This document shows positions 3,019-57,362 of a DNA stretch of 64,000 nucleotides, one piece after another. The translations under genes were made by a program, and so were the position numbers. Where the stretch lies: assembly GCA_000091205.1 (NCBI GenBank), contig AP006492.2. One strand, given 5' to 3'. Origin of the DNA: Cyanidioschyzon merolae. Lineage: Eukaryota. Positions within the stretch are counted from its first letter, which is position 1, and the number at the start of each line of letters is the position of its first letter. The notes below the pieces were generated by a model. The model searched no databases. It was given only the letters and a program-made list of their open reading frames with translations, and was not told where the DNA came from.

Positions 3019-4059
<1,041 letters not shown>

Positions 4060-30915: not shown

Positions 30916-31099
30916 GGCGGTTGCGTGCGAACACCAAACGACTCATTCCCGCCACGCGCGGCAAATGCGGCACGCACGCCGCCGCCGTGCATGCATGGGT
31001 TCCCGCCATGCAGACGCCAGATCTGTGTCTGCTTTGTCTCTATGGGAAATGTTGTGGGCATGGTGTACCCAAATTAGAGAAAATCGAACGATTCCACAT

Positions 31100-32706: not shown

Positions 32707-33115
32707 GTCGATTTTTTCGAATCATGCATACGAACCACGAGTTCCGCCATCAAGCGATAATTATTGAAACCAGGAGAGCTTGCATTATCATGCTGCACAA
32801 GACCTTGATATTCCGCCAGCATCCACCTTTAAATCCCTCCGATAATCGTGGCTCGTTCGTATGCGTCTCCCAATGCCTGCCACTAGCAGTCGCCCGCGAA
32901 TGGTGTCTACCCATCTACGAAACGTCGTTCGCGCAGGAGCTGACAATGCGGGTCTCGTGGACGCGCCGCCTCCCAGTGCGTGGAACAGGACCTCGTTATT
33001 CTTGCATTCGCGCTGCACAGCGAGGCACACATCCTCGCCAGTAAGGATCGCTTTTTATCTTTCTCGTATACCACGACTGCTGTTTGATTAGGTACGGGGG
33101 CCAAGTCTTCAAAAA

Positions 33116-40356: not shown

Positions 40357-41226
40357 CTATGCTTTTGCCTTCGGATAATACGCCAAGAGACGATCCATGT
40401 CCGTCGAAAACGTACGCAGCCATTTGCGAACCGCATCAGTTTTGCGTGGTGTTCGACGGCCTTGGTTGCCACGTATACGCGCCGCCGTCTCTAACTCGCT
40501 AAGGTCCTGAAGTATGTTCCGCACCAGACGATCCGTGCGTTTCTGTACCTCTTCATCGAAGTTCGTATCGGCAACAACGTTAAGCACGTTTCGCAAAGTG
40601 TCGTACCGAAATACCCGCTCAAGCTCTCCAAGCACGTCGTAGGTGTCAGGGGCTGCCTCGAACTTTGCACTTATGTCGCTGACAGCCTGCCGATACTCAC
40701 GCAACGCAGCCAGCTGCTTTTGGACACGAGCCACGTCCTGTTCGGAAAGAGGCGGCGCCTCAAACTGCTCCTCAACGTTGTAACCAGGCTTTGGGTACAG
40801 CTTCTTCGTCAGCGCTGTACCTGCAGCCGCGTTGCACGCGCGCGGGGCCAGGCTACCCGCAACTGCGACGGTGAGCCACGTGAGCAGCGCTCGTCGCGTG
40901 ACGTCACCACCCGGAACCGTCGCTTTGAGCGTGCTGAACGTGTTTCGGGCACAGCTGGTCCGAAATTGGGGTATGTTGCGAAGTCCTCGTTGAGTAAGGT
41001 TTAGACGTAGGCAATGTGTAAACATTTCACCCGAGACGCTTGTACCTGCGCGGGGAGCGCCAGCAGCAAAGCAGGGACGCGTACGACGCGCCGCATTGGC
41101 GACCCCAGCCGCTGGAGCCGTGCGCTCCGCGCGAGCAGCGCCACTCACGTGCGCTCCGCGCCTCCGTTCAGGGGCGTGCAGCGCTGCCAGCATCTCTGAC
41201 AATGCACACGGGGGAAGCGTTTGCAC
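40357..41226 (-). CDS. Hypothetical protein with an RR-motif (TAT-like/thylakoid-lumen-type) N-terminal signal followed by a helical domain.
   Basis: The segment ...DVTRRALLTWLTVAVAGSLAPRACNAAAG has a twin Arg followed by a hydrophobic h-region and an AxA-like site. The C-terminal about 150 aa are predicted helical. No firm family assignment (a PsbQ-like fold was considered and not supported). Confidence 0.35.
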   Translation of the reverse strand: MQTLPPCALSEMLAALHAPERRRGAHVSGAARAERTAPAAGVANAARRTRPCFAAGAPRAGTSVSGEMFTHCLRLNLTQRGLRNIPQFRTSCARNTFSTLKATVPGGDVTRRALLTWLTVAVAGSLAPRACNAAAGTALTKKLYPKPGYNVEEQFEAPPLSEQDVARVQKQLAALREYRQAVSDISAKFEAAPDTYDVLGELERVFRYDTLRNVLNVVADTNFDEEVQKRTDRLVRNILQDLSELETAARIRGNQGRRTPRKTDAVRKWLRTFSTDMDRLLAYYPKAKA

Positions 41227-41691
41227 GCAGAGACTCTACACGGCGTACGGTATGCTCAGGTTAGGAACAAAGCAAGCACCGCGGAGACGGAGGTATGCTT
41301 GTGTGACGTGATTCGTCAATGGGTGCGCTTAAGTGACGAGTATCGGGAAAGCGACAAGTTCTGCAAGGAAACGCAACCCTACAAAAGAACTGTACGCCCT
41401 GCCTGCAAGTTTCGTTCTTCTTTAGGGACTCCCTGACGTTTCTTCCACGAATTGCTGTGCTAGTTCGTCGAACTCTGTCTCCGGCAGCGCTCTTAGAGTG
41501 TTTGCGGGAACGCAGCTGTCTGCGATAGTGCTGGACAAACGCGCAGGTGCCAGTAGAGCCAGTGTCCACCGAAAGCTCCGTGTGTCCTCGTATAGGAATT
41601 CTAGGACTGGCCAATTGATTCTGATAGTGGTTGTCTGGTTCATGAAGAACGACCGAATAAAAGCAAGCGGATCAGTTGCTGACATTTCGTG

Positions 41692-43506
41692 AAAAATGTC
41701 CTCAGTTATATCGATTAATGAAACGAGATTATTGTTCAGCAACTGCGTGGGAATACCATGCCTCGCGTGTCTATCCACACCGCTTCGTCCGCTCTAGATT
41801 GCCGAACGTGCCATACCAGTGACCGGCCTCGGGCAGCAATCCAATGCCTTGTCTCTGGGTCACTGGTTCTGCTCATCGAGAGTGCTCAGCGCCTCAGGGC
41901 AGTGCTCAAACCCAGTCCCAGACGAACTGATCGAATGTTCGCTCGACCCACAGCCGCTGGACGCCCCGGGAGCACGGAACATTGCCGGATGCTGATCGAC
42001 AGGTTCATGTCTCGGTACAGAAAAGTGCTTGCGCGCCTGGTTGCTGGTGCAGTTCCAAGGTGGCAAGCCTCTCGCCTTCGATTGCCTCGCCATCTGGCGT
42101 TCGGCCAGCATACCGCACACGGTATCGTGCATCCGACGCTGGTCCCGGCTCGTGTGCTCTACCGGTTTCAGCATGCATATGTTCTAGTCAGGCGCGTACG
42201 TCGTCATGAGGGCGTCAGTGAACGACCTTCGAAATCGATGCCTGCACTCACTTGAAGCGCTCTTCGACGGGGCACTGGAGCAACCGATGTTTGCTGGAGG
42301 ATGTTCATCGCGGTGGGCTACCACTCAACGACGCGACTTGCCGGTCGTTCCCTTTCCACAACCGCTGGACTAGGTGCCGAGTGCAAGACTACCGGCCTCC
42401 GCACAGACGAAACTGCAGGCTATCCGAGCACAGCGCCAGACACATCTGCCGTCGATTGTCTGTACAGGTCAGTCGCACGCTCGTGTGCTCTCTGAATGAC
42501 GCGCATAAACGCATCACCGTCTGCACAGTACAATACGACGCTGAGAGCGTCGCGATGCGCCCTGATGCCGTCATTCCACTTTGTGGTATGTCGCCTGGCG
42601 TCCATGATGCCCGGGCCCCGATGATGCCGCGCTCTGGAAGAATCCTGTCGCGGTGCCGATGGTGTCCCGAGCAGCCGCTGTGCTGCCGCACGAAGGTTTG
42701 ATCGAGAACGTCGAGGCGGGTAAGGACAGCTGGCTGCCGTGCGTACGGAACGCGCTCGAACAGCCGCTCGACGAGATGCGCTCCAGCGAGAGAGACGAGG
42801 GAAGCGCGAGCAAGTCGGCACACACGAAGCTTGAGGCCATCAGCGAATCTTTTCGTTTGGCCGTTGGTAGGCGACTGAACGGCTGCGTCACCACAAGCAC
42901 CGGTACTGCCGCCATTCAAGCTTGTCTCTTGTGTATGAAGTGCAGCTCGCGTCTCTCTGAATGCCGATACAAAGCTGTACCGGTTATTCCGAGAACAGTC
43001 TCATCCAGTGAGACGAAACCCCGTCCCTGCTGGAACCAGTGTTTGTGTTTCATGGGGAAGCTTAGCGAGCGAAGCTTAACGGGCGAGAGCTGCATACGGA
43101 AACATACTTCTTAGTACGAGTTCGTGTCTCTTCATCAATGCTCGTCTCAATAGAGCGGAAACTTCATATCCTGTCGCTTCTTTGACAAAACTGGTCAGCA
43201 AAAGTATGCTATAGAATGCGTTGTCGAGTGAGTGCGCAGCCGTATAGACAGCGTTTGCGAGGATCAGGGTAGGGTGCACGGCATCCGTTGCACGGACGAC
43301 GAGGACAGAGGATTCATCCGCCTACTGAGCGTAGAGTGACCGACTTGGACCAGTAATGTCGTTATCTCGCCAGCTAGCAGCGACAGCACAGAGTCTTTCC
43401 AGGACCGCTTCTCAAACCGAATAACACGTCCCGTTTGCTGAGTACCTGAAAGTAAAATAGTCTCAGATAATGTACTTGAACGTGTGTTCCGGAATTCTCT
43501 GATCTG
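41692..43506. repeat. Left arm of a large inverted repeat (about 1.8 kb), pairing with 48137..49951.
   Basis: ORFs in the two arms are mirror images: 41758..42255(+) vs 49388..49885(-), 42252..42701(+) vs 48942..49391(-), 42653..43114(+) vs 48529..48990(-), and 43076..43279(-) vs 48364..48567(+). Paired coordinates always sum to 91643, so there are no indels. Only a handful of amino-acid differences separate the arms. Confidence 0.9.
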
Positions 43507-43740
43507 GATACGGCGCTTCGAGGATGCAGTAGTTTCTTGGTCCATGCTTTGATCGTGCACCTGGAATCGAATCGCCCGGGTGAGCGACACGCCCCGCTCG
43601 ACCAGATTTCGTTTGCTTGGAGACGCTACAGGAGCCAGAGCCTCGTGCCCTGTGCGGTACAGGGCGGACTTGACGCTTGTTTCGCACGAGTTGAGCTTTA
43701 CGCTGACGAGCGAGCCACCGGCTTGCGTCGCTTAACAAGG

Positions 43741-44313
43741 ATGGGTGCGAACGCGTCCACTTTGCTGGACGACGATATAACAGAAATAGTGGCCTCGTCG
43801 TCTTTCTCGAAAGATGAAATCGAGCAACTGTATAGCCGCTTTCAAAAGCTAGACCGCAACGGATCCGGAACGATCGATGCTTCAGAGTTCCTGATGATTC
43901 CGGAGCTCGCCATGAACCCACTTGTGCCGCGTATTGTCCAGCTTTTTGACGGTGTTAACTTCAAAGAGTTTGTGCGGCTGCTCTCGGCGTTCGGAAAAAA
44001 CGCACCTCGGGAAGCACGGATTGACTTCTTGTTCCGCTTTTACGACGTTGATGGGGATGGGGTGGTCAGCGAAGCAGACGTCAACAGTATTTTTCGGTTG
44101 CTCGTTGGCGAAAACCTGGACGACGCCACCTTGCGACGAATCGTACGCCAGGCTATGCTGGACTTTGGCGCTGGCCTAGAAGCTCTGGATGGCGGAGACG
44201 AGAGCGAAGAGCTGAACGGCTGTAGCGTTCAGTGCCGACCGCTCACGAGAGAGGACTTCTGTCGAAAGCTTCAAAACGTCGAACTCGATCGCATTTTACA
44301 AATATCCGTTTAG
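43741..44313 (+). CDS. Calcineurin-B-like / CHP-type EF-hand protein (N-myristoylation motif MGANAS).
   Basis: Begins MGANASTLLDDD. The EF-hand loops are DRNGSGTIDASEF and DVDGDGVVSEADV. The arrangement and spacing resemble calcineurin B/CBL proteins. The ATG is at 43741, within the longer ORF 43537..44313. Confidence 0.7.
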   Translation: MGANASTLLDDDITEIVASSSFSKDEIEQLYSRFQKLDRNGSGTIDASEFLMIPELAMNPLVPRIVQLFDGVNFKEFVRLLSAFGKNAPREARIDFLFRFYDVDGDGVVSEADVNSIFRLLVGENLDDATLRRIVRQAMLDFGAGLEALDGGDESEELNGCSVQCRPLTREDFCRKLQNVELDRILQISV

Positions 44314-45144
44314 GACTTCATTCCGGTGACCGCATTCGCTATGCTTCGTCAATCGAGCAGGGCATGCACCCCCAGGAGCCGCCTACGTGGCTACGCCTCC
44401 CCGCTCATGCTCTCTTTTTCAAGGCGATATCATTGGTGACCAGGCGAGCTGGTGCGTGCCCAGTGGTGCGTATCCACGAATACAACGCGCGCTCTCTACA
44501 ACAGCGTCTAGCGGCAGCCTCGGTTGTGGTGCTTTCGGAGTCGGCGTGCGGCGTGCACGAGGCACTGTCACCCTTCAACAAGCTCAGTTTAGAGGAGCCT
44601 CACAGGTCTCTTGCGGGACCAAAGTTCAGAGCCGCAGTCTCGCGCACTGGAGGTCGCCTTCTCTCTCTGTGTGTGTATGTATGTGTGTGTGTGAGCGACG
44701 CACAGCGGCCTCGCGAAAGGACGCGAGACCCCGCTCTGCGTACATTTACCACAACGATGCGCCTTCCTCGACGAACGTACATAACATAGGGGCATGCTAG
44801 AGTCTCCAGCAGAGTCGTCCTCGCTTTACATTCCAAGGATGTGTACTGCCGTTACATCCATACGTGCGCAGCCGGTGATACCACAGCACGTCATCGTGCA
44901 CAGGCAGGCACACGAGCCGCTCTGTCTCGGGTCCGCAGCTGAGGCACTGTCGCCTCAGAGGTCCAACAGACGCGGATACCGTTCCGCAGCCGCAGAGCAG
45001 GTCGAGCGCCCCAGAGGCAGCGCAGCGGCAACTGCTCCGAGATGGAGCGCTCCTGATGATGCCCGCTACAGATCGACTGTTCAATAAATGAATGAATGGA
45101 ATGCCACCTGGTCGAAGATGTTGCCGAACGGTTCACTAATCCTG

Positions 45145-46821
45145 TCACGACGCTACGACAACTGGTACGGCCTCCGATGTGCAAGCGGTGTCAGTGCCTG
45201 CCCCAGTGCCTGCTCCAGTGCTTGCGTCCGCAACACGCCAACGCGCACGAATAACACTGTCCGCTGGGTATATCGTCGGCAAGTAGATGATCTCGTCGCT
45301 GTGCACGGTGCGCACCCGAGTCCAGTCCACAGTGGTCGCCAGCACCGCCAAATAGCACATCAAATGGTTGATCGCATAGTTCCGCCCGACACACATGTGC
45401 GGACCGCAGCCAAACGTCAGGAAATGCTTCCGGTACTTTTGCTCCTCCTGCCGCGGCGGCAGCATCCGCTCCGGATCGAAGCGTTCAGGTGACGGAAAGC
45501 CCTGCATGCACGCAGTCCAGAGACTCGGCACCACGAGCGCACCTCGCGGCACCTCGTAGCCGTTCGGCAGCTGCACCCGCTTGCTCGCAACCTGCGGAAC
45601 CATCACAGGCGGCGGCCGGAAGCGCAGCACCTCCAGAACGACCGCGCGCGTGTACACCATCTGCTCCAGCAGCTCGTAGGTGATCGGCTCGTCGTGCGGG
45701 CGCAGCCGCTGTTGCTCTTCGCGCACCCGCTGCAGCACGTCGGGTCGCTCGGCCACCAGCACAGTCGTCCATACCAGCGACGCTGTCGACGCATCCTGAG
45801 ACGCAAACAAAAAGTCCAGCATGGCGTCCGCCATCTCGTGGTCCGCGCTGTACTTGGGCGGCGCCCGGTTCTCGCGCTTCGCAGCTGCAACCTCCTCCAG
45901 CACGGACACCGTCCAAAAGTCCAGCAGGCACTGCGGCTCCGCCTCGGCGTCCTTCCGGAAACGCTCCTTCGACGCCCGTACACACGCAGTCAGGTCCCGT
46001 AGTACACGCTCCCGCGCCCGTATCGCACGCCACAGGCCCGTCCCAGGCAGCGCTAACGGGAACGAAAGAAAACCCTGCGTGATCAGCAGATAGTCCGCAC
46101 AGAAGCGCTCCCGATCGCGCAGGTACGGACCCACAAACACCGTCTGCGACGTCCGCAGATTCAGGTCGCGGATGCGCGGGCGCACCTCAAATGCTGCCGC
46201 GGTGCCGTCCGTGCCGCGCCCCGACAGCCACGCCGCCAGGTGCTCGCCAATCAGGCGCTCGTGGATGCTCACGTACATGCCTAGCGCCTTGGGCGTGAAC
46301 AGCCGCAGAAAAGACTGCCGCAGGAGCTTGTGCTCCTCGCCGCTCTTGAAGGCAATATTGTTCCGCCCGAGGATCCGCCAGCCGTTCGGGTGCAGTATCA
46401 TCTCAAACGCGTGCGGGCCGTTCTCGCTGAGCACGTACCGGCTGAGGTCCGTGTCCGTCACGAAAAGCACGAAGAAGCCCGCCAGCGCATTCCAGCTCAG
46501 GCCGCACGGGTTTAAGCGCCGCTGCCGCTCCCAGAACCCGTACGGCGACAGCACCATTTCCACGATGCTCCCGATGAGCGGAATCACAAACCGCGGGCCT
46601 GGGATTCGCCCGTAGCCCGCCCAGCGCCGCAGTCGCACCTGCTCTGCGATCGCGAGGCCGAGCACCAGCAGCGCAACGTACGCCAGCGCACGGCTGGCGG
46701 TACCCCAGCCGGCGATCCCCAGCGCAGCGTCCGCGCGGCGCAGGCAGTGCCGCGCCACCGATACCACCCACTCGGCTGCTGCCACAGGCGTCGAGCGCGT
46801 AAGCGAGGCCGTCTCAATCAT
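45145..46821 (-). CDS. Cytochrome P450, sterol C-22 desaturase-like (CYP710/CYP61 family).
   Basis: 558 aa. N-terminal membrane anchor, PERF-like PERFDPERM, and the haem-binding loop FLTFGCGPHMCVGRNYA. FLFASQDASTASLVWT closely resembles the CYP710/CYP61 I-helix region. There is a C-terminal (AGT)n-encoded Gly/Thr/Ala tail. Confidence 0.7.
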   Translation of the reverse strand: MIETASLTRSTPVAAAEWVVSVARHCLRRADAALGIAGWGTASRALAYVALLVLGLAIAEQVRLRRWAGYGRIPGPRFVIPLIGSIVEMVLSPYGFWERQRRLNPCGLSWNALAGFFVLFVTDTDLSRYVLSENGPHAFEMILHPNGWRILGRNNIAFKSGEEHKLLRQSFLRLFTPKALGMYVSIHERLIGEHLAAWLSGRGTDGTAAAFEVRPRIRDLNLRTSQTVFVGPYLRDRERFCADYLLITQGFLSFPLALPGTGLWRAIRARERVLRDLTACVRASKERFRKDAEAEPQCLLDFWTVSVLEEVAAAKRENRAPPKYSADHEMADAMLDFLFASQDASTASLVWTTVLVAERPDVLQRVREEQQRLRPHDEPITYELLEQMVYTRAVVLEVLRFRPPPVMVPQVASKRVQLPNGYEVPRGALVVPSLWTACMQGFPSPERFDPERMLPPRQEEQKYRKHFLTFGCGPHMCVGRNYAINHLMCYLAVLATTVDWTRVRTVHSDEIIYLPTIYPADSVIRARWRVADASTGAGTGAGTDTACTSEAVPVVVAS

Positions 46822-47299
46822 TGCTGTCGCAGCTGCGCTCGATGCTCAAGCACGCGCACGCGCCAGCGAGTACGGCCGCGATCGCGAACGCGAACGCGTG
46901 TGTCTACGACTAGGAGGCGCGCGCCCGTGTGCTTCAGCAGCGTACGCGCCTTTGGACAGCAGCAAACGCTGACCGGTCCCGCTCAAGCGCTGCGCGTTTC
47001 GCCAAAACGTATACACAAACGGCACGCACTTGGTTCACGAGCAAAGCGCTCTGCTCGGTGCCGCTCCAAAATAGTCTCCAGCAACCTCTCGGGGGCGTCT
47101 GCGCCCCAGCACGGCACGCGCAGCTCAGCAACGCCTCGCTCGACGGGGTCTCGCTCAGCCTACCGAGTTCAAGCACGGCTTAGACTAGCCTTGCCCTTGC
47201 TGTGATTCAGTCCTTGCTTTCCCTCGCCGCACTAGACTCAGACTCGTGCGGCACAGCTGCGCACCGTCACGCCGGGTCAAGCGCGCTCGATCGTGTCAG

Positions 47300-47546
47300 A
47301 GCCCGAGGCAAGCGTTCACACGTGTACACACACACAGACACAAACACACTGATGCAGACAATAAAAACAGTGATATCGACAGGACCAAACCAGAGATGCA
47401 CACACACACTTCGACCCTGTTTGGAATACACACAAGACGGGTGTTCCCCGAAATACTGCTACACTTGATTGTGTTGAAACGCGCCTTCACCGAATAATGA
47501 AATGCGCGGCATCGAGCAGCACGCATCGACGACGCGACAGCCGCAA

Positions 47547-47623
<77 letters not shown>

Positions 47624-47900
47624 ATCCATAGACCGCTCGCCTTCAGACGTAGGGCAGCGAGGCACCCGGTCGATGCGGATGCGTCACGCGGGGCAATGCG
47701 CGCCACCACGCATCGATTGCGCTGCCGCTGAGGCCTGTTGATGATGATGATGATGGTGATGATGGTGATGCTTGGGAGCGAGGCGGGGAGTCGCTGTGCT
47801 GCGTCGCCGACGCTGCTGGCTACACGATCGCGGGAGGGGGGGGGGTTTGTGTTGATGCTTCTCTCTCTCTCTCTGTGTGTGTGTATGCATCTAACATCGT
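47300..47900. repeat. Compound microsatellite cluster: (CA)n-rich, (GCGT)19, (GAT)n, poly-G, (CT)n(GT)n.
   Basis: The line starting at 47281 carries the CA-rich run tgtacacacacacagacacaaacacac. 47545-47620 is gcgtgcgtgcgt... 47741-47775 is gatgatgatgatggtgatgatggtgatg. 47823-47836 is poly-G, followed by ctctctctctctgtgtgtgtg. Confidence 0.9.
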
Positions 47901-48136
47901 GCAGCGTCCCGTAATGGCACCAGATGGTGCAGTCGACGGGGTACGCTGATTTCCCGCAGGCGATGCCCGACATTACGTAGTAGGAAGAATGCCCCACAGG
48001 ATATGCAACGCTTTGTTATTTTCGAACTCGACTGTGTATGACCTCGAGCGAATTGCAAGTACCCTCAATTGATGGAGATGTGGAAGGGAAAAATCATGCG
48101 GAAGGCTCGATTTGCGCATGATGCTCACGTTTTACT

Positions 48137-49951
48137 CAGATCAGAGAATTCCGGAACACACGTTCAAGTACATTATCTGAGACTATTTTACTTTCAGGTA
48201 CTCAGCAAACGGGACGTGTTATTCGGTTTGAGAAGCGGTCCTGGAAAGACTCTGTGCTGTCGCTGCTAGCTGGCGAGATAACGACATTACTGGTCCAAGT
48301 CGGTCACTCTACGCTCAGTAGGCGGATGAATCCTCTGTCCTCGTCGTCCGTGCAACGGATGCCGTGCACCCTACCCTGATCCTCGCAAACGCTGTCTATA
48401 CGGCTGCGCACTCACTCGACAACGCATTCTATAGCATACTTTTGCTGACCAGTTTTGTCAAAGAAGCGACAGGATATGAAGTTTCCGCTCTATTGAGACG
48501 AGCATTGATGAAGAGACACGAACTCGTACTAAGAAGTATGTTTCCGTATGCAGCTCTCGCCCGTTAAGCTTCGCTCGCTAAGCTTCCCCATGAAACACAA
48601 ACACCGGTTCCAGCAGGGACGGGGTTTCGTCTCACTGGATGAGACTGTTCTCGGAATAACCGGTACAGCTTTGTATCGGCATTCAGAGAGACGCGAGCTG
48701 CACTTCATACACAAGAGACAAGCTTGAATGGCGGCAGTACCGGTGCTTGTGGTGACGCAGCCGTTCAGTCGCCTACCAACGGCCAAACGAAAAGATTCGC
48801 TGATGGCCTCAAGCTTCGTGTGTGCCGACTTGCTCGCGCTTCCCTCGTCTCCCTCGCTGGGGCGCATCTCGTCGAGCGGCTGTTCGAGCGCGTTCCGTAC
48901 GCACGGCGGCCAGCTGTCCTTACCCGCCTCGACGTTCTCGATCAAACCTTCGTGCGGCAGCACAACGGCTGCTCGGGACACCATCGGCACCGCGACAGGA
49001 TTCTTCCAGAGCGCGGCATCATCGGGGCCCGGGCATCATGGACGCCAGGCGACATACCACAAAGTGGAATGACGGCATCAGGGCGCATCGCGACGCTCTC
49101 AGCGTCGTATTGTACTGTGCAGACGGTGATGCGTTTATGCGCGTTATTCAGAGAGCACACGAGCGTGCGACTGGCCTGTACAGACGATCGACGGCAGATG
49201 TGTCTGGCGCTGTGCTCGGATAGCCTGCAGTTTCGTCTGTGCGGAGGCCGGTAGTCTTGCACTCGGCACCTAGTCAAGCGGTTGTGGAAAGGGAATGACC
49301 GGCAAGTCGCGTCGTTGAGTGGTAGCCCACCGCGATGAACATCCTCCAGCAAACATCGGTTGCTCCAGTGCCCCGTCGAAGCGCGCCTCAAGTGAGTGCA
49401 GGCATCGATTTCGAAGGTCGTTCACTGACGCCCTCATGACGACGTACGCGCCTGACTAGAACATATGCATGCTGAAACCGGTAGAGCACACGAGCCGGGA
49501 CCAGCGTCGGATGCACGATACCGTGTGCGGTATGCTGGCCGAACGCCAGATGGCGAGGCAATCGAAGGCGAGAGGCTTGCCACCTTGGAACTGCACCAGC
49601 AACCAGGCGCGCAAGCACTTTTCTGTACCGAGACATGAACCTGTCGATCAGCATCCGGCAATGTTCCGTGCTCCCGGGGCGTCCAGCGGCTGTGGGTCGA
49701 GCGAACGTTCGATCAGTTCGTCTGGGACTGGGTTTGAGCACTGCCCTGAGGCGCTGAGCACTCTCGATGAGCAGAACCAGTGACCCAGAGACAAGGCATT
49801 GGATTGCTGCCCGAGGCCGGTCACTGGTATGGCACGTTCGGCAATCTAGAGCGGACGAAGCGGCGTGGATAGATACGCGCGGCATGGTATTCCCACGCAG
49901 TTGCTGAACAATAATCTCGTTTCATTAATCGATATATCTACGGATATCGCG
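48137..49951. repeat. Right arm of the large inverted repeat (pairs with 41692..43506).
   Basis: See the left arm. The inner boundary diverges right after ...ggaattctctgatctg (43506 / 48137). The outer boundary lies near tatatcgattaatgaaacg (41692 / 49951). Confidence 0.9.
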
Positions 49952-51586
49952 TAAAGTGTACAGCAAGTATTCTTGTTAATACCCGTGTCAGACTAACACC
50001 GAACGGGTCTACCTAATGAAACGCGCCTGCAAAGTTTCGAGACGCTTTCAACATCCATCAGCACCAGCTTCCGCGGGCTTTGTCTGCGACTGCTTCCTTT
50101 TCCTCTGTATTATTTCCAGCTTTTAGTATGTCAGACTCTCGCGTACCTGCAGCATTGCTGTCAGAAGTCGATGGATGATGATGATCGCGTACAAGTCCCG
50201 AGTTCCTAGTTTCCGTTAGTTGCCAACGGATTCGAGACTCATACGGAAGTTGCGATCTACGCTTCGCTTGCCATTTTCACCTTCTTTTCATAGAGTCATA
50301 CTGCTCCCTGCATAGTGATGAGACTTGCCTTGGACAGGTGTTCCCCCAAGTCCATCAGATCTCCTTGACTGAGGGCTATACTCTAGCGCACGAAAGCTTG
50401 CTTCGCCATTCGATACACGCCCTCTGGCGCGGCAGCGCGAACCCTCGATGCCACCCTCCGTCTGTGCACCCCGTCGTCGTAACCTAGAATCACAGGGGTT
50501 TCCTGGGTGATCCCATTAGCGAGTATGCTCTCTGCCACCCGTGCACGAGCACGCTCCCTCATTCGATGAAGGATTCGGGAAATGCGGTATTGTCCATGAT
50601 GAAACAAGAAGTACCGTTTGGAAAAATCTGGTCTCTACAAGGAGCAACGGAACTTCGATCCGTCTATGCTGCCATCTCGCAAAACAGTGACCCTCTCTCT
50701 AGTGAGTGTGTTTGTTGGAATGACTGAAGCTGGAGTTCAAGGCCCTTTTACGTGCAAGCAGATGAAAAGGGAGCCTCTTGGAGCAGATCCCGTGAGATCT
50801 ATAATGCTGCTCTCGGATGCTGCTGCGTCGATGAGCGCAACGAAAGGAGTGTATGTCCTGCGAACAGAGCCAATTATTCGATGTGAAATGTTCAGTAAAT
50901 TTTTGGTATGGGCTTGTGAAAAGGTCGTCAATAAACGAAGCGCAGCGGTTTTTGTGGTCACTTGGGCGGCATGAATCGCCGTGCCAACCGTTTGCCTTGA
51001 AACCAAAACGTTGAAAACTTGACGCATGCGTGATTCGAGCGCGCCGCACGTAGAGTAAAGAGAAGCATGGGGGCTTGTGCATGTGACTCAGATAATGAAA
51101 TCGATTATTTTAAGAACACTTGTTCCGGAGCATGGCAAATCATGGTCATTCCGGTGACGTAACAACTTCCAGCGGCGAGGCGTTGAGGAAGTCACCCCGA
51201 AAAGACGACCATTCATCGATGAATTAGGCGTAAAACGTATGCAGGTATTGCTGCACTCGGAATCTCGCGGCTTTATATCCTAAAAAATCTCGGGGAAATT
51301 TGAATATCGGGAACAGAGATACCAGGTGAGAGCTCCATGTAGGTCTCGTTAAGCTTTTGGGCAAGAATAACCAGGGTCCCGAGCGGCGCCTCCTTATCTG
51401 TCCGCGGGATCCTGCATATCAGCGATACCGCAAGTTCGAGCATTTAACTGCTCCACATTGTTTCTGGACGCAAGATCCCGTTGCGAGCCCACGACATGCG
51501 ACAACGACGGCAACAACGGCAATCAGCATTACCGCGACGAAGATCGGCACTGCCCTCGTCAGGAGTGATGGCACCTAGCTGCAAGT

Positions 51587-53761
51587 TCAAGCACGGAGGT
51601 CTGGTCGCTCTCGGCCAAGCTCCGAGACGATTCCACAATAGAGAAGAGCTGCGCGCCCAATATCTGCCACAAAACTCGAGGCAAGTTCCCCAACAGCTTG
51701 AACGTCTCCGTCATTGGGGGCAACGTACTTTTCTAGGTAAACGCGCAGGGTCGCATCCGCTGAACTTGTCCCGCTGAGCCGCAGAACGGCTCGCATCCTC
51801 CGATCAGATGAGAAAAACAACCGTACGCCCTGGTTTCGCGCCCAGGAGCCATCCACTGGATCCTGGTAATGAAATACATCCGCGGCATAGAGCTGTGGTC
51901 CATCGATACGCAAGCTGAGGATTTCGCCGCCTTCGACCGAGCGTTCTAGGTTGCGCATCCAGCGCTCGGCTGTGGTCCGTTCGATTCCGTGAAAATCCCA
52001 GCGCTCGTAATAGTTGCGTCCGTAGTGAGCCCAGTGTGCTCGAACAATATCCTCAACACTTGTGCTTTTCGATCCCGGAGCGACTTGGAGATTATGGTAC
52101 GCCAAAATTGACAGCCAAAAAAGAATAGCCCACAAACCATCTTTCTCTCTGATATGAGCCCCGCCCGCCCCGCAACTCTCCTCTCCGCATAGAGAGACCA
52201 GGCCCGCGTCGAGCAGATTGCAGAAATATTTCCACCCCGTGGGCGTTTCGTAGCACCTAATATTATGGCGTGAAGCAACGACGTCAACAGCAGAGCTCGT
52301 CGGCATCGAGCGAGCGACGCCTCGAATAAGGCCACCATCAAATCTGCAGTATGCGGCAAAATCCGGTCGAAGTGCGTAATCCAACATAATCGCCAGCGAG
52401 TCTGATGGTTGCACGACGAACTTACGCCCGAGAATAAGATATCGGTCACCATCGGCATCGGAAGCAGCGCCAAAGTCGGGTGAATCCTCATCGGAAAAGA
52501 ATTCGGCAACCAAGTCTGCCAAGTTCTCCAGATTAGGTTCCGGATGAACGCCACCAAAGTCGGGGAGATACTGACCCCGCCGGAACCAGGGATACTCCCA
52601 GTACCCGAGTTTTTCGCCAAAAATCATGAACGCAAACGGACCAGTCGATCCATACATCGCATCGTAAACCATGTTAAAGTTTGGGAGACGCAAGAGCGCT
52701 CTTAATCGTTCAAAATGAAATATACCTTCCATCAGCTCCACGTACGTTGCAGTGGCATCAACGAGGTGGATTTCAAAAGTCCTCCCGCCATCCGAGTGTG
52801 GGAGTCTGTCCGGATTCGGGGACTGGAGCGCATCGCGAGCGCCCTCCGGCAAGATCCGAAAACGGTGTACCGTTTGGATCCGTTTGAAATTGACACCGTC
52901 GAACCCGTCCCGGCCACAGAGCGCCTCCGGATCCGACGCCTCCACCTCTAAATATCTAGATATTGTCAAGGTTCTCTCGTAAATTAGGGACGTAAATGAG
53001 TCCGGCGCTGGACCACCGTTTTCCATATTGTACTTGACACCCCAGTCGCCATCAACACCGCCAGGGTTGTGGCTCGCCGTCAGGGCGATCCCGCCCAGGG
53101 CACCAGCAGCTCGAATCGCCGCACTGATAGCGGGCGTCGTAGCGATAGCGTCCGGTCCGAGCACGATCAGCCGCTGCAGGCTGTTGGCGGCAGCGATGCG
53201 GAGCAGTGTTCGAAGGGCAGCCTGGTTGCCCTCGCGGCCGTCGCCACCGACAACGAGTGTTGCCCGGTTGAGGCACGTGCGCCCGTATCGCTCGACCAGC
53301 ACATCGAAAAGGGATTGAAACCAGTTCTCGAAAAAGTTTGGTGTCTGTGTTACCTCACGTGTGCGCTTTCGTATGCCAGAGGTGCCCGTCTTCTGACCAG
53401 GTATCGGTGACGTTGGAACCTGGACAACGCACAGCGGTGTGCTTTCCTCGTACACGACGGTTTCTTGGTGGAACAGATCACTCCAGTCGATTGCAGAGCA
53501 TCGGATTTTGCTGCGTTCGAGTCTAGAGGTTTGATTCGGTTCCCGTTTGCCTGCAAACTTGCGGCGACGCCACGCGCTCTGGCACAAGTAAGAACTTGCC
53601 CTGGTTGGGTTCCAGTAGGTCCCGCGCGCCAGCGTTGCTCGTTTCGGCGTGTAGTTCACGGTAAACGCCAGGCACGGAAACCAGCCGCACTCACAACGAG
53701 GCGCCAATCTGCCGTAAGTTACGCAGTCCATCCCAGTGGATGCATCCTCGATTGAAACCAT
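51587..53761 (-). CDS. PGM: Phosphoglucomutase. The ORF has an about 100-codon N-terminal extension of doubtful coding status.
   Basis: GTSGIRK (phosphate-binding), active-site TASHNPGG, metal-binding DGDGDR, and GEESCG/sugar-binding motifs in the canonical order. The conserved core begins near residue 105 of the ORF (about 53440). The upstream residues (PRCECGWFPCLAF...) are Cys/Trp/Arg-rich and unlike a transit peptide. Confidence 0.85.
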   Translation of the reverse strand: MVSIEDASTGMDCVTYGRLAPRCECGWFPCLAFTVNYTPKRATLARGTYWNPTRASSYLCQSAWRRRKFAGKREPNQTSRLERSKIRCSAIDWSDLFHQETVVYEESTPLCVVQVPTSPIPGQKTGTSGIRKRTREVTQTPNFFENWFQSLFDVLVERYGRTCLNRATLVVGGDGREGNQAALRTLLRIAAANSLQRLIVLGPDAIATTPAISAAIRAAGALGGIALTASHNPGGVDGDWGVKYNMENGGPAPDSFTSLIYERTLTISRYLEVEASDPEALCGRDGFDGVNFKRIQTVHRFRILPEGARDALQSPNPDRLPHSDGGRTFEIHLVDATATYVELMEGIFHFERLRALLRLPNFNMVYDAMYGSTGPFAFMIFGEKLGYWEYPWFRRGQYLPDFGGVHPEPNLENLADLVAEFFSDEDSPDFGAASDADGDRYLILGRKFVVQPSDSLAIMLDYALRPDFAAYCRFDGGLIRGVARSMPTSSAVDVVASRHNIRCYETPTGWKYFCNLLDAGLVSLCGEESCGAGGAHIREKDGLWAILFWLSILAYHNLQVAPGSKSTSVEDIVRAHWAHYGRNYYERWDFHGIERTTAERWMRNLERSVEGGEILSLRIDGPQLYAADVFHYQDPVDGSWARNQGVRLFFSSDRRMRAVLRLSGTSSADATLRVYLEKYVAPNDGDVQAVGELASSFVADIGRAALLYCGIVSELGRERPDLRA

Positions 53762-53855: not shown

Positions 53856-54908
53856 TTACGACTTGTCGATCCGAACGCCGTTCGAAATTCGAACGACGCC
53901 AGCAGTACAGTAGTGGCGAGAAGCCCGACCTAGACTAGTCGTCATTAACCAATGTGCAGACGTCCTCGTCTTTTTCGACCGGCCCCCGCTACTGCTCCCT
54001 TTTTTCTCATATAGTTCCACTTTGAGAGATTGTCCAGCAAAGTTCGCGCTTGTCCAATCTGGTGGTCTCTCCTCCAGCACCGCACATCTCCTTATATTGA
54101 TGGCGGCGTTAGAGTCACGATTCACAAACTCCATCCGTTTCTTGCCATCACTGGTTGCACTTACTAATGCAAAGAGTCCACGAACTTTCGCCCTCCTTTC
54201 CATTTGCTCTTCTGTTAGCAGTCCGTACTTTGCTATATCCTCAGGGCTCCTCTGGCACTTTTCCATCTCGACTCTCTGAAGTGTACAACCCAGCTCGTGG
54301 TGTGTGTAGGACGTTCGGAACTCATCTACAGGTATCGTGACGAAACGCCTTGTGCACTCCTTGTACAACCTTGTCGTTGGAGCTGGTGTACACCCTTTTT
54401 GAATCTTCCATCGCCCTGCTGCGTACGCTACTACGAGCCTTTGAGTCTTGTCCTCTTTGAGGGCACTCAACTGATTGAAAAAGTTGGCGAACGCCTGCTG
54501 CTTACCACAATACAGATTCATTCGCAAACGAGCCCATCGGGGCTTTGTATACTCCTCCCAGAGTGCATCCCAATGGGCAACGCGAACTTCCATAAATTTC
54601 CGAAAAGCTTCAAAGTCCGCACCTCGGCTCGTCATCTCGCCCAAAGCTTCCAGGTGATCCTTCATTCCTGAATTCCAAGTCTCGATTTTCTTCCTCGCAT
54701 TCATTATACCGGATTCTCGATAGTATCTTGCTCTCGAGAACCTCATCAGACGCATGTCTTTCTGACGTAAGTTACCATCAGCGCCATCTTCTGCACGCTT
54801 CGGTGCTGCGATGGTTGTGATATTCGTATTCCCAGGGTCCGCGCCACCGACAAAGTCGTTATCTTGCACTTTCTCGGTCACAGGACCCGCCCTCCTTCTT
54901 TTCTTCAT
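53856..54908 (-). CDS. Fanzor (eukaryotic TnpB-like RNA-guided-endonuclease family) protein, C-terminal RuvC-containing half, with an intact 350-aa ORF.
   Basis: RuvC-I-like [14 protein letters not shown] (aa 21-34). The Fanzor/TnpB TS motif is [16 protein letters not shown] (aa 193-208, nt 54285-54332), preceded by [15 protein letters not shown]. The RuvC-III motif is RDSNAAINI (aa 264-272, nt 54093-54119). No canonical RuvC-II Glu is found in the usual xVVED position, which may fit the relocated catalytic Glu described for the Fanzor1 type, as recalled from the literature rather than seen in the sequence. GC is about 50% against about 60% for host genes. Confidence 0.7.
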
Positions 54909-56124
54909 GCTTCACCGCGTCAATGGCAAGGTAGTCATCCTGCACCACCGGCGTCGCAGGATCCGCCTCCTTCTCATCTTCATCCTTCGCCGCGCCGACG
55001 ATAAGGTCGTTATCCTCCACCTCCTGCATCACAGAATCCTCCTCTTTGTTTTCTGCATCCCTCGTGACGGGCGCGGCCGAGGGCGGATCTGGACGATCTT
55101 TCTTCAACCGCCGATAGAGTACACACGTGGCTACTCCATCGGTTTCGATCAACCCAGCAAATACCTTTTGTTTGCTGACTTTGAGACGTTTGAAGTCGAA
55201 GATACTCTTCCAGTACGTCTCCCGGTTTTCACCGATGAAGTCCTCCCTGCTCACATCGAACTCCGGACAGATCTCCCTCATGATGCCGTAAAGGACGCCT
55301 GAATCGATAGTCACGAAATGTGACTTGATATTGCACATTGGAACGCCGTTGAAGCGCTTACCCATTAGGAAAGCCTTCCGTCTCTCCCACTCTTGATTTG
55401 TCTCTTCACTCAGCTTCATCTCCGCTTCGCGTTCGAGCTCTCGGTCCAGAAACACGAAATATCACAGGATGAGGCGGTAGTATCTTTCCTTATCTTTTTT
55501 CAACTCTGATCAATTTTCTGCCAAATTCGCCAGCCCCAGGACTGCACGATACTCTTGGATAGCCGCACGGATTACAGAAGCTTCATTTGCGCTCCTGCGT
55601 GACGCCTTCTTATCGACAAACTCGATCTCAACTTCATACTTGCGATCTTTCATGATGCCATTGATAATCGCCCATTTTCCGTTGCGAGCGATGCCCGGGT
55701 AGAGTGTACCCACCGCGCGTATCATAAAACGTTCGAGGTTCACTGTCAAATGGTTCTTCAGACTCGTGGTGTACTTTTTCGCTCCGTATGCCTAAATATC
55801 CGAGGCACCCCTGTATCGATTACCTTCGAAGCGGAATTCCACCAAGTTTTCGTGGAGGGCGTGCACTAGCACATTTTCCTTCAGCGCTTCCGCTGTGCCA
55901 AGCATCAGGTGACGAATAAACGTCTTGTCGAAAAACTCGTCAGGAATCTCGACTGTTTCCGTGTGCGTCACGTCGCGATACATCTCCCTCACCAAATGCA
56001 TCAGTACTGACGACGCCTTGACAATACTCTTGGAGTACGAGTCGACATGGTTTCTGATAGCGTCTCGCAACTTTTCGTTGCACGGATCCTTGATATGTTT
56101 AAGAAGGAAGGTTTTCACCACCAT
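54859..56124 (-). pseudogene. Putative N-terminal half of the same Fanzor gene. It is one reading frame broken by in-frame stops (TAG 55792-55794, TGA 55510-55512, TGA 55462-55464) and joined to the RuvC half by a frameshift within a 3x about 75-bp imperfect tandem repeat.
   Basis: ORFs 55792..56124, 55510..55749 and 54859..55455 all share minus-strand frame 0. The C-terminal ORF 53856..54908 is in frame 2 and overlaps by 50 nt. The repeats encode [11 protein letters not shown] / [11 protein letters not shown] / [12 protein letters not shown] basic NLS-like ORF (KKNKKQCRVQKKRERRR) lies at 56099..56281. No convincing intron signals flank the stops, so recent pseudogenisation is more likely than splicing. 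Confidence 0.45.
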
Positions 56125-57362
56125 CTCGTCGTAAAGTCGTCTTTGTTGCAGCCTTCAACGTAGGGCCTCCCCTTTCGGTTCTTCTTCTCTCCCTTTTCTT
56201 CTGGACTCGGCACTGTTTTTTGTTTTTTTTTCTGGCAGCCGGCGACCCTGGGCCTCCAGGATCGTGGACTTGCTTTTTCATAGCTTTCCTTTTTTAGTTT
56301 TTTTTTGAAAAACAACGCTCTGTGAACGCTTCTGTTATATACTGCGAAAAAAAACTTGAACACACTTGTTTGAGGTTTGAAAGAAAAATGAACTAAAAAA
56401 CTGTACTCTGCTAAGACCTTAACGGAAATCCAATTTTTCCAGTAGAACAACACGCTACTGATCAGGATCGCGTTTCCCTTCAACGGCGGCATTCGCATCG
56501 TGTCAGTAGACTGGCCGATCTCCGAGGTATCTCGGCGTCGATCTGGTCGTGGTGAGCAAAACGCCGGGTACAAAAACACCGATAACAAAACAAACTAGTC
56601 GCAAACTATTTATTAAAGAACAACTATCTTAAAGACCCACACACCACGCCCGCCTTAGAGGTCTAGTTTTTCCGGAGAAGCTCTGAAAGTGGGTTAACGC
56701 GGGGTGCTTGGGCGACGGCGAAGGAAGCCCACGCCAGGGACCTTGACCGCAACGAACGGAGGGGCGGCGGCAGTAGCACCAGAAAATGTTGACGAAAATC
56801 CTGATTAGTCATCCGCCCCTCCCGAATCAACGCTGCAGGTTCGGGCGCAAATCTTGGATCGATCCTCGGACTCGGGCTCCGTTTTACCTCCTACCTTGGC
56901 TACCTACCTCAACTTTGGGAACAATTTCGGCGGATACTTTGGAAGACGGCTGGCAGTATGTTCACTGTCGAAGCTGGAATAAGCGGCTTGCCCGCCTATG
57001 TGTTTGGGGAGCGGATACGTAGCCGCTGAAAGGGTGGTTTGCAGACTGTTCCCAATTGTTGAGGGGAGGTTAAAGCGTCGGGCAAGATAAAGGTCGCATT
57101 CGAATCGACCTTGACTAGCGTACATCTGATTCTACGCTAGCGCTGCGGCAGACGCTCAATGAACGACTGGAATGCAGGAGGCGCTGGTGGCATGTGCGAT
57201 CACACACGCCATGGAGGGTGCATCTCAATCGACAACGTATCTCTCGAGTACCGCAGCGTTAATCCTATTCCCTTATGCGCTACGACTCGATAGGTTTCGC
57301 ATCATGGAATATTTGTGGGATCGCCTCGGTATTGAACTACGAGATATCGAATTACCAGTACA

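What the first reader, a model, noticed from the sequence alone, without database searches (positions are those of the whole stretch)
41692..49951. About 99%-identical 1.8-kb inverted repeats enclose an EF-hand gene, a CYP710-like P450 and a microsatellite cluster.
The arms are 41692..43506 and 48137..49951. They are perfectly colinear (paired coordinates sum to 91643) with no indels. They contain several 150-180-aa ORFs with no recognisable domains, such as MPRVSIHTASSALDCRTCHTSDRP and MNGGSTGACGDAAVQSPTNGQTKRFADG. The axis of symmetry falls inside the P450 gene. Such long, nearly identical inverted repeats are unstable unless recent. Possible explanations are a recent inverted segmental duplication, a foldback or Polinton-like element carrying cargo, or an assembly artefact. 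A copy of the repeat-A terminal motif (ctgcgactgcttccttttcctct, 50081) lies just outside the right arm.
Basis: seen in the sequence. Interest (0 to 1): 0.65.

Follow-up and report, generated by a model that had tools for sequence, protein, structure and literature searches.

The report
Inverted repeat from dead Fanzor transposon

Summary
The arms are 41696-43506 and 48137-49947 (1811 nt, 20 mismatches, no indels), with a 4630-nt spacer holding an EF-hand gene, a CYP710 P450 and microsatellites. The window is Cyanidioschyzon merolae 10D: its P450 and phosphoglucomutase equal BAM80373.1 and BAM80374.1.

It is not an assembly artefact. Independent hot-spring metagenome contigs span each whole arm into unique flanks. 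It need not be recent. Every wild lineage sampled has the same arm boundaries, and variants group by lineage rather than by arm, which indicates gene conversion between the arms.

It is not a foldback or Polinton element. The enclosed genes are syntenic host genes, also present at this position in Cyanidium caldarium. There are no target-site duplications, no transposition genes in the spacer, and no third copy.

The arm ORFs are not genes. The arms carry a frameshifted, stop-containing relic of a Fanzor1 (TnpB-like) protein, related to the known CMe-1A transposon.

The locus is a rearrangement hotspot. CYP710 itself is duplicated, and the sister genus Cyanidiococcus has the same two-gene block inverted and a 5.3-kb CYP710 inverted repeat. 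Some metagenome contigs show the flipped junction, but short-read assembly cannot prove inversion polymorphism.

Verdict: a new member of a known kind, of modest interest.

The parts
41696..43506 (+). Left arm of the inverted repeat (1811 nt). It carries the mirrored Fanzor1 relic at 42698-42492 and 42339-42028 on the minus strand.
48137..49947 (-). Right arm of the inverted repeat. It is probably the parent copy, because it continues into a degenerate repeat-A element on its outer side.
48945..49706 (+). Dead Fanzor1 (TnpB-like) C-terminal relic inside the right arm. Three colinear pieces lie in three reading frames, with in-frame stops. They match CMe-1 residues 453-514, 561-664 and 656-696 at 33-39% identity.
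43507..48136 (.). Spacer of 4630 nt between the arms. This is the block whose orientation differs in the sister genus.
43741..44313 (+). EF-hand protein gene. The start is set by homology; the open frame begins at 43537.
45145..46821 (-). CYP710 sterol C-22 desaturase-type P450, copy a. Identical to BAM80373.1.
44312..47984 (-). CYP710 duplication unit of 3.67 kb. Wild contigs show it is shared, at over 99% identity, with the locus of a second CYP710 copy; in 10D that copy (BAM80381.1) lies outside the window.
47547..47770 (.). Microsatellites (TGCG)19 and (TGA)n in the CYP710 upstream region.
50060..51202 (+). Degenerate copy of the 0.92-kb repeat-A sub-element, just outside the right arm. 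It includes the motif at 50084-50106.
40357..41226 (-). Left flanking gene. It is the orthologue of Cyanidiococcus g228 and Cyanidium g235 and serves as the synteny anchor.
51587..53761 (-). Right flanking gene, phosphoglucomutase. Identical to BAM80374.1.

Best explanation
The feature is a pair of low-copy inverted repeats, an inverted segmental duplication, on an 839,707-bp chromosome of Cyanidioschyzon merolae 10D.

The duplicated 1.8 kb is non-functional DNA. It is part of an ancient, decayed Fanzor1 (TnpB-like) transposon copy lying in the distal upstream region of CYP710 copy a. The right arm is probably the original and the left arm a partial copy placed in inverted orientation between the g289 gene and the EF-hand gene.

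The duplication predates the divergence of the sampled wild lineages. Recurrent gene conversion between the arms keeps them about 99-100% identical, and conversion is weaker at the repeat edges.

Because both ends of the enclosed 4.6-kb block face the same sequence, homologous recombination between the arms can flip the EF-hand/CYP710 block. Such a flip would leave at least 1.8 kb of flanking sequence unchanged on each side.

What is shown: the repeat is real, it is shared among lineages, it evolves in concert, it derives from a transposon, it has no coding capacity, and the block sits in conserved synteny. What is inferred: which arm is the parent, how the duplication arose (ectopic break repair or template switching), and that flipping actually occurs.
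For: Real and shared among lineages:
- L015 runs from the spacer through the whole left arm and 9 kb of left flank.
- L014 and L016 run from the spacer through the whole right arm to the phosphoglucomutase gene.
- L008 and L009 cross the left arm, and L045 crosses the right arm.
- L010 and L011 begin and end inside the two arms.
- Contigs of 1800 nt that consist of the arm alone, and flank contigs that stop 130-150 nt into an arm, show a collapsed two-copy repeat in other assemblies.

Concerted evolution:
- The only fixed left/right differences are at arm positions 3, 7, 8 and 11.
- Both 10D arms share C, G and T at positions 1042, 1537 and 1550, against T, A and C in the full-length wild arms compared; one wild contig, L010, carries the 10D states at 1537 and 1550.
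- The haplotype at positions 1528-1570 is GGTC on both arms in 10D and in L010. It is GACC on both arm types in other lineages.
- Allele C at position 1754, 57 nt from the junction, is linked to the EF-hand side in L010 but to the P450 side in L014 and L016.

Not coding:
- No Pfam match for four of the arm ORFs, and no Rfam or tRNA hit in the arms.
- Codon scores of -0.12 to +0.02, against 0.11-0.28 for six confident genes (a seventh, the frameshifted Fanzor ORF, scored 0.06).
- The 165-aa ORF has only near-identical C. merolae relatives.

Transposon origin: colinear tblastn matches to the published CMe-1 Fanzor1 consensus, in three reading frames with stops (consensus from PMC3627910).

Right arm as parent: the right arm plus the next 1.2 kb is colinear with the composite seen in repeat-A copies (a Fanzor 3' part followed by a 0.92-kb element). 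The left arm lacks the second part.

Host block: the gene order left flank, EF-hand (+), P450 (-) is the same in Cyanidium caldarium.

Recombination capacity: C. merolae integrates DNA by homologous recombination (PMC3764038).
Against: - The 10D genome outside the window could not be read, because the strain is not indexed. A third arm copy elsewhere in 10D is excluded only indirectly, by the 25 or more wild contigs that show only the two known contexts.
- L013 joins 184 nt of arm to the second CYP710 context. I read this as a chimera formed through the 3.7-kb CYP710 repeat, but it could be real.
- Wild 'left' and 'right' arms come from short-read assemblies that may mix the two arms. For that reason the conversion argument rests mainly on 10D and on sites close to the junctions.
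- Two ancient insertions of one transposon, later homogenised, cannot be formally separated from a duplication.
- No arm homologue is detectable in Cyanidiococcus, so the arms cannot be tied to the inversion in that genus.
Confidence: 0.75

Rival explanations
1. Two independent ancient insertions of the same Fanzor-type transposon landed in opposite orientation on either side of the block. Gene conversion later homogenised them. On this view there was never a segmental duplication.
For: The arms are transposon-derived. The relic's reading frame would end roughly 100-150 nt before the outer arm boundary, so that boundary may lie near a transposon 3' end. C. merolae carries about 150 CMe-1A copies (PMC3627910).
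Against: Both arms stop at exactly the same internal point (43506 / 48137), with unrelated sequence beyond. They share the same frameshifts and stops. Only two copies were found, in two contexts. The arms have no nucleotide similarity to CMe-1A.
Confidence: 0.12
2. The arms are a functional duplicated element, such as a promoter, enhancer or non-coding RNA gene serving the EF-hand gene and CYP710. Selection, not conversion, keeps them identical.
For: The inner end of the left arm lies 235 nt upstream of the EF-hand start codon, so it probably contains that gene's promoter.
Against: There is no Rfam hit and no conserved counterpart in Cyanidiococcus or Cyanidium. The content is a decayed transposon gene. 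Variants are frequent (57 variable sites among arms) and they move between arms, which is the signature of conversion rather than purifying selection.
Confidence: 0.07
3. The whole 8.25-kb unit is a mobile element, either a foldback element or a Polinton-like element with long terminal inverted repeats, carrying the EF-hand and P450 genes as cargo.
For: Long terminal inverted repeats enclose genes, and the arm sequence is related to a transposon.
Against: The enclosed genes are in ancestral synteny with the left flank in Cyanidium, which lacks the arms. There is no target-site duplication. No polymerase, integrase, capsid or transposase domain is present. No other copy occurs in any contig, nor in the viral or prokaryotic collections.
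Confidence: 0.02
4. The structure is an assembly artefact of the 10D reference.
For: None found.
Against: At least six independent metagenome contigs from different samples cross entire arms into unique sequence on both sides.
Confidence: 0.01

Closest known systems
Inverted low-copy repeats (segmental duplications) that undergo interlocus gene conversion and mediate inversions. One example is the inverted repeats flanking the human FLNA-EMD interval, which I recall from memory. General behaviour is described in PMC3790853, PMC4132178 and PMC10172114.
   Same: There are two kilobase-scale copies at about 99% identity, in inverted orientation, a few kb apart. Variants are shared between the paralogous copies and conversion is weaker at the edges. 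The enclosed block is found in the opposite orientation in a related genome.
   Different: This case sits in a 16.5-Mb, nearly intron-less algal genome. The arms are only 1.8 kb and are made of a dead transposon fragment. Inversion polymorphism within the species is not demonstrated.
The 5,286-bp, 99.92%-identical inverted repeat at the orthologous locus of Cyanidiococcus yangmingshanensis (GCA_026122185.1, contig JANCYV010000002.1).
   Same: The chromosomal neighbourhood is the same, with the same left-flank genes. It is also a near-identical inverted repeat kept alike long after the duplication, and the CYP710 gene is involved.
   Different: There the arms contain the CYP710 gene itself plus 2.8 kb of upstream sequence, and they enclose 14.5 kb with seven genes. 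The C. merolae arms share no detectable sequence with them. From GenBank accession order and wild contigs, the two CYP710 copies of C. merolae appear to be direct repeats (inferred).
CMe-1A, the Fanzor1-encoding transposon family of C. merolae (Bao and Jurka 2013, PMC3627910).
   Same: The arms contain colinear matches to the C-terminal nuclease half of the CMe-1 protein, including the RDxN..I motif region. A near full-length CMe-1A copy lies 4 kb away at 53897-56504.
   Different: Identity is only 33-39% at the protein level, in three frames with stops, and there is no nucleotide similarity. The arms are therefore not a CMe-1A copy but a much older or different relic. CMe-1A has no terminal inverted repeats, so the repeat described here is not a transposon terminus.
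Recombinational isomerisation at large inverted repeats, as in the plastid inverted repeat or the yeast 2-micron plasmid (from general knowledge).
   Same: Identical inverted arms flank a unique segment that can flip without changing the adjoining sequence.
   Different: This is a nuclear chromosomal locus. No dedicated recombinase is present, and the coexistence of both isomers is unproven.

Membership tests
Inverted low-copy repeat pair with gene conversion | Two copies on one chromosome, inverted, at least 1 kb long and at least 95% identical | tested here: met
   1811 nt at 98.9% identity, with no indels
Inverted low-copy repeat pair with gene conversion | Both copies and all four junctions confirmed independently of the reference assembly | tested here: met
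   Spanning contigs L008, L009, L014, L015, L016 and L045
Inverted low-copy repeat pair with gene conversion | Paralogous copies share variants or are homogenised within lineages | tested here: met
   There are no fixed left/right differences except at the outer 11 nt. Both arms carry the same lineage-specific haplotypes. The allele at position 1754 is linked to opposite exits in different lineages.
Inverted low-copy repeat pair with gene conversion | Both orientations of the enclosed segment observed | tested here: inconclusive
   The orientation differs between C. merolae and Cyanidiococcus. Within the species, ten contigs (L036-L044 and L047) join the left flank and arm to the P450-upstream end. 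However, the assembly graph is the same for both isomers, and the arm haplotypes in those contigs are mosaic.
Foldback / terminal-inverted-repeat DNA transposon or Polinton | Target-site duplication at the outer ends | tested here: not met
   The flanks GTGAAAA and CGCGTAA are unrelated
Foldback / terminal-inverted-repeat DNA transposon or Polinton | Transposition or replication genes between the repeats | tested here: not met
   The two spacer genes and a low-complexity spacer ORF were scanned against Pfam; only EF-hand and P450 matched. Both genes are syntenic host genes in Cyanidium.
Foldback / terminal-inverted-repeat DNA transposon or Polinton | Multiple copies at different loci | tested here: not met
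   Only two flank contexts appear among 25 or more contigs. There are no hits in the viral or prokaryotic collections. The rest of the 10D genome was not searchable.
CMe-1A Fanzor1 transposon | Nucleotide similarity (about 80%) to the 3169-bp consensus | tested here: not met
   blastn of the consensus finds 53897-56504 and small fragments elsewhere, but nothing in the arms
CMe-1A Fanzor1 transposon | Encodes a Fanzor1/TnpB-type protein | tested here: inconclusive
   Only a broken C-terminal relic remains, at 33-39% identity (E = 7e-7 and 5e-6) with stops and frameshifts. This shows homology to the protein family, not membership of CMe-1A.
Breakpoint duplications made by a staggered-break inversion | The enclosed segment is inverted relative to the ancestral order | tested here: not met
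   The C. merolae orientation equals that of the outgroup Cyanidium. The model would need two successive inversions.
Site-specific invertible switch | A recombinase gene nearby and short specific inverted sites | tested here: not met
   The proteins scanned from 40357-53761 (two spacer genes, four arm ORFs, a spacer ORF, both flanking genes and two ORFs right of the arm) gave no recombinase domain. The arms are 1.8 kb of transposon relic.

The most novel reading that the evidence does not exclude
The repeat may be an active flip-flop. On this reading both orientations of the EF-hand/CYP710 block coexist in natural C. merolae populations. Ten metagenome contigs join the left flank and arm to the P450-upstream end, while six contigs and strain 10D show the standard arrangement. 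That would make this a recombinationally isomerising nuclear segment at a hotspot where the sister genus has fixed the opposite orientation. A more remote variant is that breaks made by the neighbouring Fanzor1 nuclease family seeded these rearrangements.
Probability: 0.3. Interest if true: 0.5.

Novelty: new member of a known kind. Interest (0 to 1): 0.3.

Why it matters
C. merolae is used as a minimal, low-redundancy model genome, and it is engineered by homologous recombination. This locus shows that kilobase-scale repeats in it evolve in concert and probably drive local inversions.

Three practical points follow:
- Constructs targeting the EF-hand gene or either CYP710 copy could recombine with the wrong repeat.
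- Short-read assemblies and variant calls are unreliable over 41.7-50 kb.
- The two CYP710 copies should not be treated as independently evolving genes.

For genome evolution, the locus offers a compact three-species example (Cyanidium, Cyanidiococcus and Cyanidioschyzon). It shows repeated rearrangement at one site, with transposon relics as the repeat material. It does not reveal a new mechanism.

Tried and rejected
- Rfam and tRNA scans of 41-51.6 kb gave only microsatellite noise.
- Pfam, NCBIfam, PHROGs and a PDB sequence search gave nothing usable. Four arm ORFs had no Pfam match. The Fanzor-like protein gave only sub-threshold TnpB-type hits (E = 0.23-0.63). Its identity came instead from the published CMe-1 consensus.
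- blastn and tblastx of the arms against the Cyanidiococcus and Cyanidium loci found no homologue. A search for a decayed second arm between the EF-hand gene and DUF1995 in Cyanidiococcus also found nothing.
- The idea that the left arm is a remnant of the two extra Cyanidium genes (g302 and a second EMP24) was rejected: tblastn was negative.
- No target-site duplication was found.
- Reading 10D beyond the window failed. Exact look-ups of BAM80373.1 and BAM80381.1 returned nothing, so the strain is not indexed.
- Scans of prokaryotic genome contigs and viral contigs with an invariant 27-mer from the arm gave 0 hits.
- The published 10D versus MS1 comparison reports rearrangements only on chromosomes 3 and 19, and its dot-plot would not resolve a 4.6-kb inversion.
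- I considered treating the nine flipped contigs as proof of polymorphism and rejected that. Their arms are mosaics of a few widely spaced variants, and the assembly graph cannot distinguish the two isomers.


Full report
OBSERVATION

The repeat is real and was almost exactly as described. The repeat finder gives a single inverted pair, 41696-43506 and 48137-49947, of 1811 nt with 4630 nt between the arms. It is the only inverted repeat of at least 60 nt in the 64-kb window.

A base-by-base comparison shows the following:
- The arms are perfectly colinear, with coordinates summing to 91643, and have no indels.
- There are 20 mismatches, which is 98.9% identity.
- Four of the first 11 positions differ.
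- The inner 468 nt are identical.

The spacer holds these features:
- An EF-hand ORF with Pfam EF-hand matches. The start supported by homology is 43741.
- A P450 at 45145-46821 on the minus strand (Pfam p450, E = 2.5e-43).
- (TGCG)19 and (TGA)n microsatellites at 47547-47770.

The quoted motif is at 50084-50106, 137 nt outside the right arm.

SOURCE ORGANISM

The window's P450 is identical to BAM80373.1 ('cytochrome P450, family 710'). Its phosphoglucomutase is identical to BAM80374.1. Both belong to Cyanidioschyzon merolae strain 10D, on an 839,707-bp chromosome. From my memory of the published chromosome sizes this is chromosome 10; I did not verify that. The nearest other genomes are Cyanidiococcus yangmingshanensis (P450 80% identical) and Cyanidium caldarium (70%).

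NOT AN ARTEFACT

Hot-spring metagenomes contain C. merolae-like contigs that are 98-99.6% identical to the window.
- L015 runs from the EF-hand gene through the whole left arm and 9 kb of left flank.
- L014 and L016 run from the CYP710 upstream region through the whole right arm to the phosphoglucomutase gene.
- L008 and L009 cross the left arm, and L045 crosses the right arm.
- L010 and L011 start and end about 310 nt inside the two arms.

In other samples the arm was assembled as a separate 1800-nt contig (41707-43506), and flank contigs stop 130-150 nt into the arm. That is how a collapsed two-copy repeat looks.

NOT NECESSARILY RECENT: THE ARMS EVOLVE IN CONCERT

All lineages share the same arm boundaries, so the duplication predates their divergence. 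Unique sequence in these contigs differs from 10D by 0.4-1.7%, about as much as the two 10D arms differ from each other (1.1%).

Without exchange between the arms, left/right differences should be fixed across lineages. Only positions 3, 7, 8 and 11 at the outer edge behave that way. Instead:
- Both 10D arms share states at positions 1042, 1537 and 1550 that are absent from the five full-length wild arms compared. L010 later proved to carry the 10D states at 1537 and 1550.
- At positions 1528-1570, the haplotype GGTC sits on both arms in 10D and in L010. The haplotype GACC sits on both arm types in other lineages.
- Allele C at position 1754, only 57 nt from the junction and so immune to assembly mixing, is linked to the EF-hand exit in L010. 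In L014 and L016 it is linked to the P450 exit.

Differences concentrate at the repeat edges, as expected when conversion tracts need homology on both sides. One caveat applies. Wild arms from short-read assemblies can be mosaics, so I rest the argument on the finished 10D sequence and on sites near the junctions.

WHAT THE ARMS ARE

The arms do not contain genes.
- Four arm ORFs have no Pfam match.
- The arms contain no Rfam family and no tRNA.
- A codon-usage score separates confident genes from arm ORFs. Six genes score 0.11-0.28 bits per codon, of which three were held out of training. The arm ORFs score -0.12 to +0.02.
- The 165-aa ORF has only near-identical C. merolae relatives among 5.8 billion proteins.
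- GenBank protein numbers run consecutively from the P450 to the phosphoglucomutase, so no gene is annotated in the right arm.

A gene called on wild contig L029 gave unexpected tblastn hits in both arms. That protein is the Fanzor1 protein CMe-1 of the CMe-1A transposon described by Bao and Jurka (PMC3627910). I took the 3169-bp consensus and the 734-aa protein from that paper's supplements.

Against this consensus, window 53897-56504 on the minus strand is a near full-length CMe-1A copy, at 85-87% nucleotide identity. In 10D its reading frame is broken near 54886-54905.

The right arm carries three colinear matches on its plus strand:
- 48945-49151 matches residues 453-514 at 39% identity.
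- 49304-49615 matches residues 561-664 at 33% identity, with two stops.
- 49584-49706 matches residues 656-696 and retains the 'RD.N..I.I' motif.

These three pieces lie in three different reading frames, and the left arm mirrors them. There is no nucleotide similarity to CMe-1A. The arms are therefore a very old, dead relic of a Fanzor1-type element, not a CMe-1A copy.

Just outside the right arm, 50060-51202 is a degenerate copy of the 0.92-kb 'repeat-A' sub-element (other copies at 783-1693, 4484-5403 and 31790-32709). It stands in the same order as in repeat-A copies 1 and 3, where an internally deleted CMe-1A precedes it. The left arm lacks this continuation. That is why I take the right arm as the parent and the left arm as a partial copy.

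NOT A MOBILE ELEMENT WITH CARGO

The left-flank genes (4HBT-like, EMP24, Yos1 and g289), followed by EF-hand (+) and P450 (-), occur in the same order and orientation in Cyanidium caldarium. That species has a single P450 and no arms. There is no target-site duplication. The two spacer genes and a low-complexity spacer ORF matched only EF-hand and P450 families in Pfam. No third context appears among the arm-bearing contigs. An invariant 27-mer from the arm is absent from the prokaryotic and viral collections.

THE NEIGHBOURHOOD IS A REARRANGEMENT HOTSPOT

C. merolae has a second CYP710 gene (BAM80381.1), eight genes further on. In wild contigs the exact same P450 protein occurs in both contexts. 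One is next to the EF-hand gene. The other is next to a Myb gene, an unnamed gene and DUF1995. The shared unit is window 44312-47984, and copies from the two contexts do not sort by context, so these copies also evolve in concert.

The accession order is P450a 80373, phosphoglucomutase 80374, DUF1995 80378, P450b 80381. Combined with the wild contig order, this implies that the two copies are direct repeats in 10D. That is an inference.

In Cyanidiococcus the two copies are the arms of a 5,286-bp, 99.92%-identical inverted repeat that encloses 14.5 kb. There the EF-hand/P450 block is inverted relative to the conserved left flank. So exactly the block bounded by the C. merolae arms has the opposite orientation in the sister genus, while C. 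merolae keeps the outgroup's orientation.

I found no trace of the arms, or of any Fanzor relic, in Cyanidiococcus. C. merolae is reported to have far more repeats than Cyanidiococcus, 12.7% against 0.59% (PMC9812998). The arms therefore cannot be shown to have mediated that inversion.

IS THE BLOCK FLIPPING TODAY?

Nine contigs from nine samples (L036-L044) join the left flank, the arm and 190-485 nt of the P450-upstream end of the spacer. A tenth, L047, does so for 13 nt. This is the junction expected of the flipped isomer. Six contigs (L008, L009, L014, L015, L016 and L045) and strain 10D show the standard junctions.

I do not accept this as proof, for three reasons. With near-identical arms the assembly graph is the same for both isomers. 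The arms of these contigs are mosaics of three or four widely spaced variants. The nine samples are probably related. The reciprocal junction (EF-hand side, arm, right flank) was not seen.

MECHANISM

Shown:
- The feature is a two-copy inverted repeat of dead transposon DNA.
- It is present in every wild lineage sampled.
- It is homogenised by exchange between the arms.

Inferred:
- It arose by ectopic repair or template switching that copied 1.8 kb from the CYP710 upstream region into the g289/EF-hand intergenic region.
- It is a substrate for homologous recombination that inverts the 4.6-kb block. C. merolae readily recombines homologous DNA (PMC3764038).
- Such a flip would leave at least 1.8 kb of identical sequence next to each end of the block, so it should be nearly neutral.

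COMPARISON AND VERDICT

The feature behaves like the inverted low-copy repeats known from many genomes, which show interlocus gene conversion and recurrent inversion (PMC3790853, PMC4132178, PMC10172114). It meets the defining features of that class except for demonstrated inversion polymorphism. It fails the tests for a foldback element or Polinton, for CMe-1A membership, for a staggered-break breakpoint duplication, and for a site-specific switch.

I found no published description of this particular repeat. The 10D versus MS1 comparison reports rearrangements only on chromosomes 3 and 19.

It is a new member of a known kind. It is useful to know about for gene targeting and assembly in this model alga, and it is a tidy case of concerted evolution, but it is not surprising.

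Noticed in passing
window 44312-47984; loci L005-L007, L013, L023: CYP710 is duplicated in C. merolae (BAM80373.1 and BAM80381.1). A 3.67-kb unit is shared at over 99% identity between the two loci. In wild strains both loci encode the identical 558-aa protein, so the copies evolve in concert.
   Followed up: partly
protein P0127 (BAM80381.1), outside the window; compare window 46403-46771 minus-strand ORF: The first 60 or so residues of the second CYP710 copy of 10D read like the alternative frame of copy a ('DRRLGYRQPCAGVRCAAGARPRDRR'). That copy therefore appears frameshifted and lacks the membrane anchor. It may be a pseudogene or contain a sequence error.
   Followed up: partly
L001+L002 (Cyanidiococcus contig JANCYV010000002.1, 763821-803238), arms at merged coordinates 7161-12446 and 26973-32257: A 5,286-bp inverted repeat at 99.92% identity. 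Each arm holds CYP710 plus 2.8 kb of upstream sequence with 78-nt tandem repeats. The arms enclose seven genes, and the EF-hand/P450 block is inverted relative to C. merolae and Cyanidium.
   Followed up: yes
window 53897-56504 (-): A near full-length copy of the Fanzor1 transposon CMe-1A (consensus positions 687-3145, 85-87% identity). Its reading frame is broken in 10D near 54886-54905, inside a 75-nt tandem repeat, but a 503-aa frame is open in wild contig L029. This explains the odd base composition of 54-56.5 kb.
   Followed up: partly
window 175-1693, 4484-5403, 31176-32709; diverged copies at 19133-19678 and 50060-51202: The dispersed 'repeat-A' family is a composite. An internally deleted CMe-1A part (consensus 826-969 plus 2849-2971) is followed by a 0.92-kb element that starts with CTGCAACTGCTTCCTTTTCCTCT. 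The 0.92-kb part also occurs alone (4484-5403) at 97-99% identity and is not part of the CMe-1A consensus.
   Followed up: partly
window 56585-59035; loci L017, L018, L023, L028, L029: A further repeated segment. Wild contigs place an inverted paralogue of 56585-59035 next to the DUF1995 gene, which in 10D lies beyond the window end. Identity to the window varies widely, from 88% to 97%. The two versions from a single metagenome are only 88% alike.
   Followed up: partly
window 60576-60764 (-), 9624-9760 (-): Short fragments matching the 5' part of CMe-1A (consensus 85-271). This is the part reported to equal the separate element TE-N2_CMe.
   Followed up: no
window 9888-10197, 60868-61191, 2451-2732: Tandem arrays of 15-nt (14 copies), 27-nt (8-9 copies) and 94-nt (3 copies) units.
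   Followed up: no
window about 41160-41235: Many independent metagenome contigs start or end here (L009, L038-L043, L047, L051, L054). L038 and L039 carry 123 nt of unmatched sequence at this point. This suggests a strain-variable insertion or repeat just upstream of the g289 gene.
   Followed up: no
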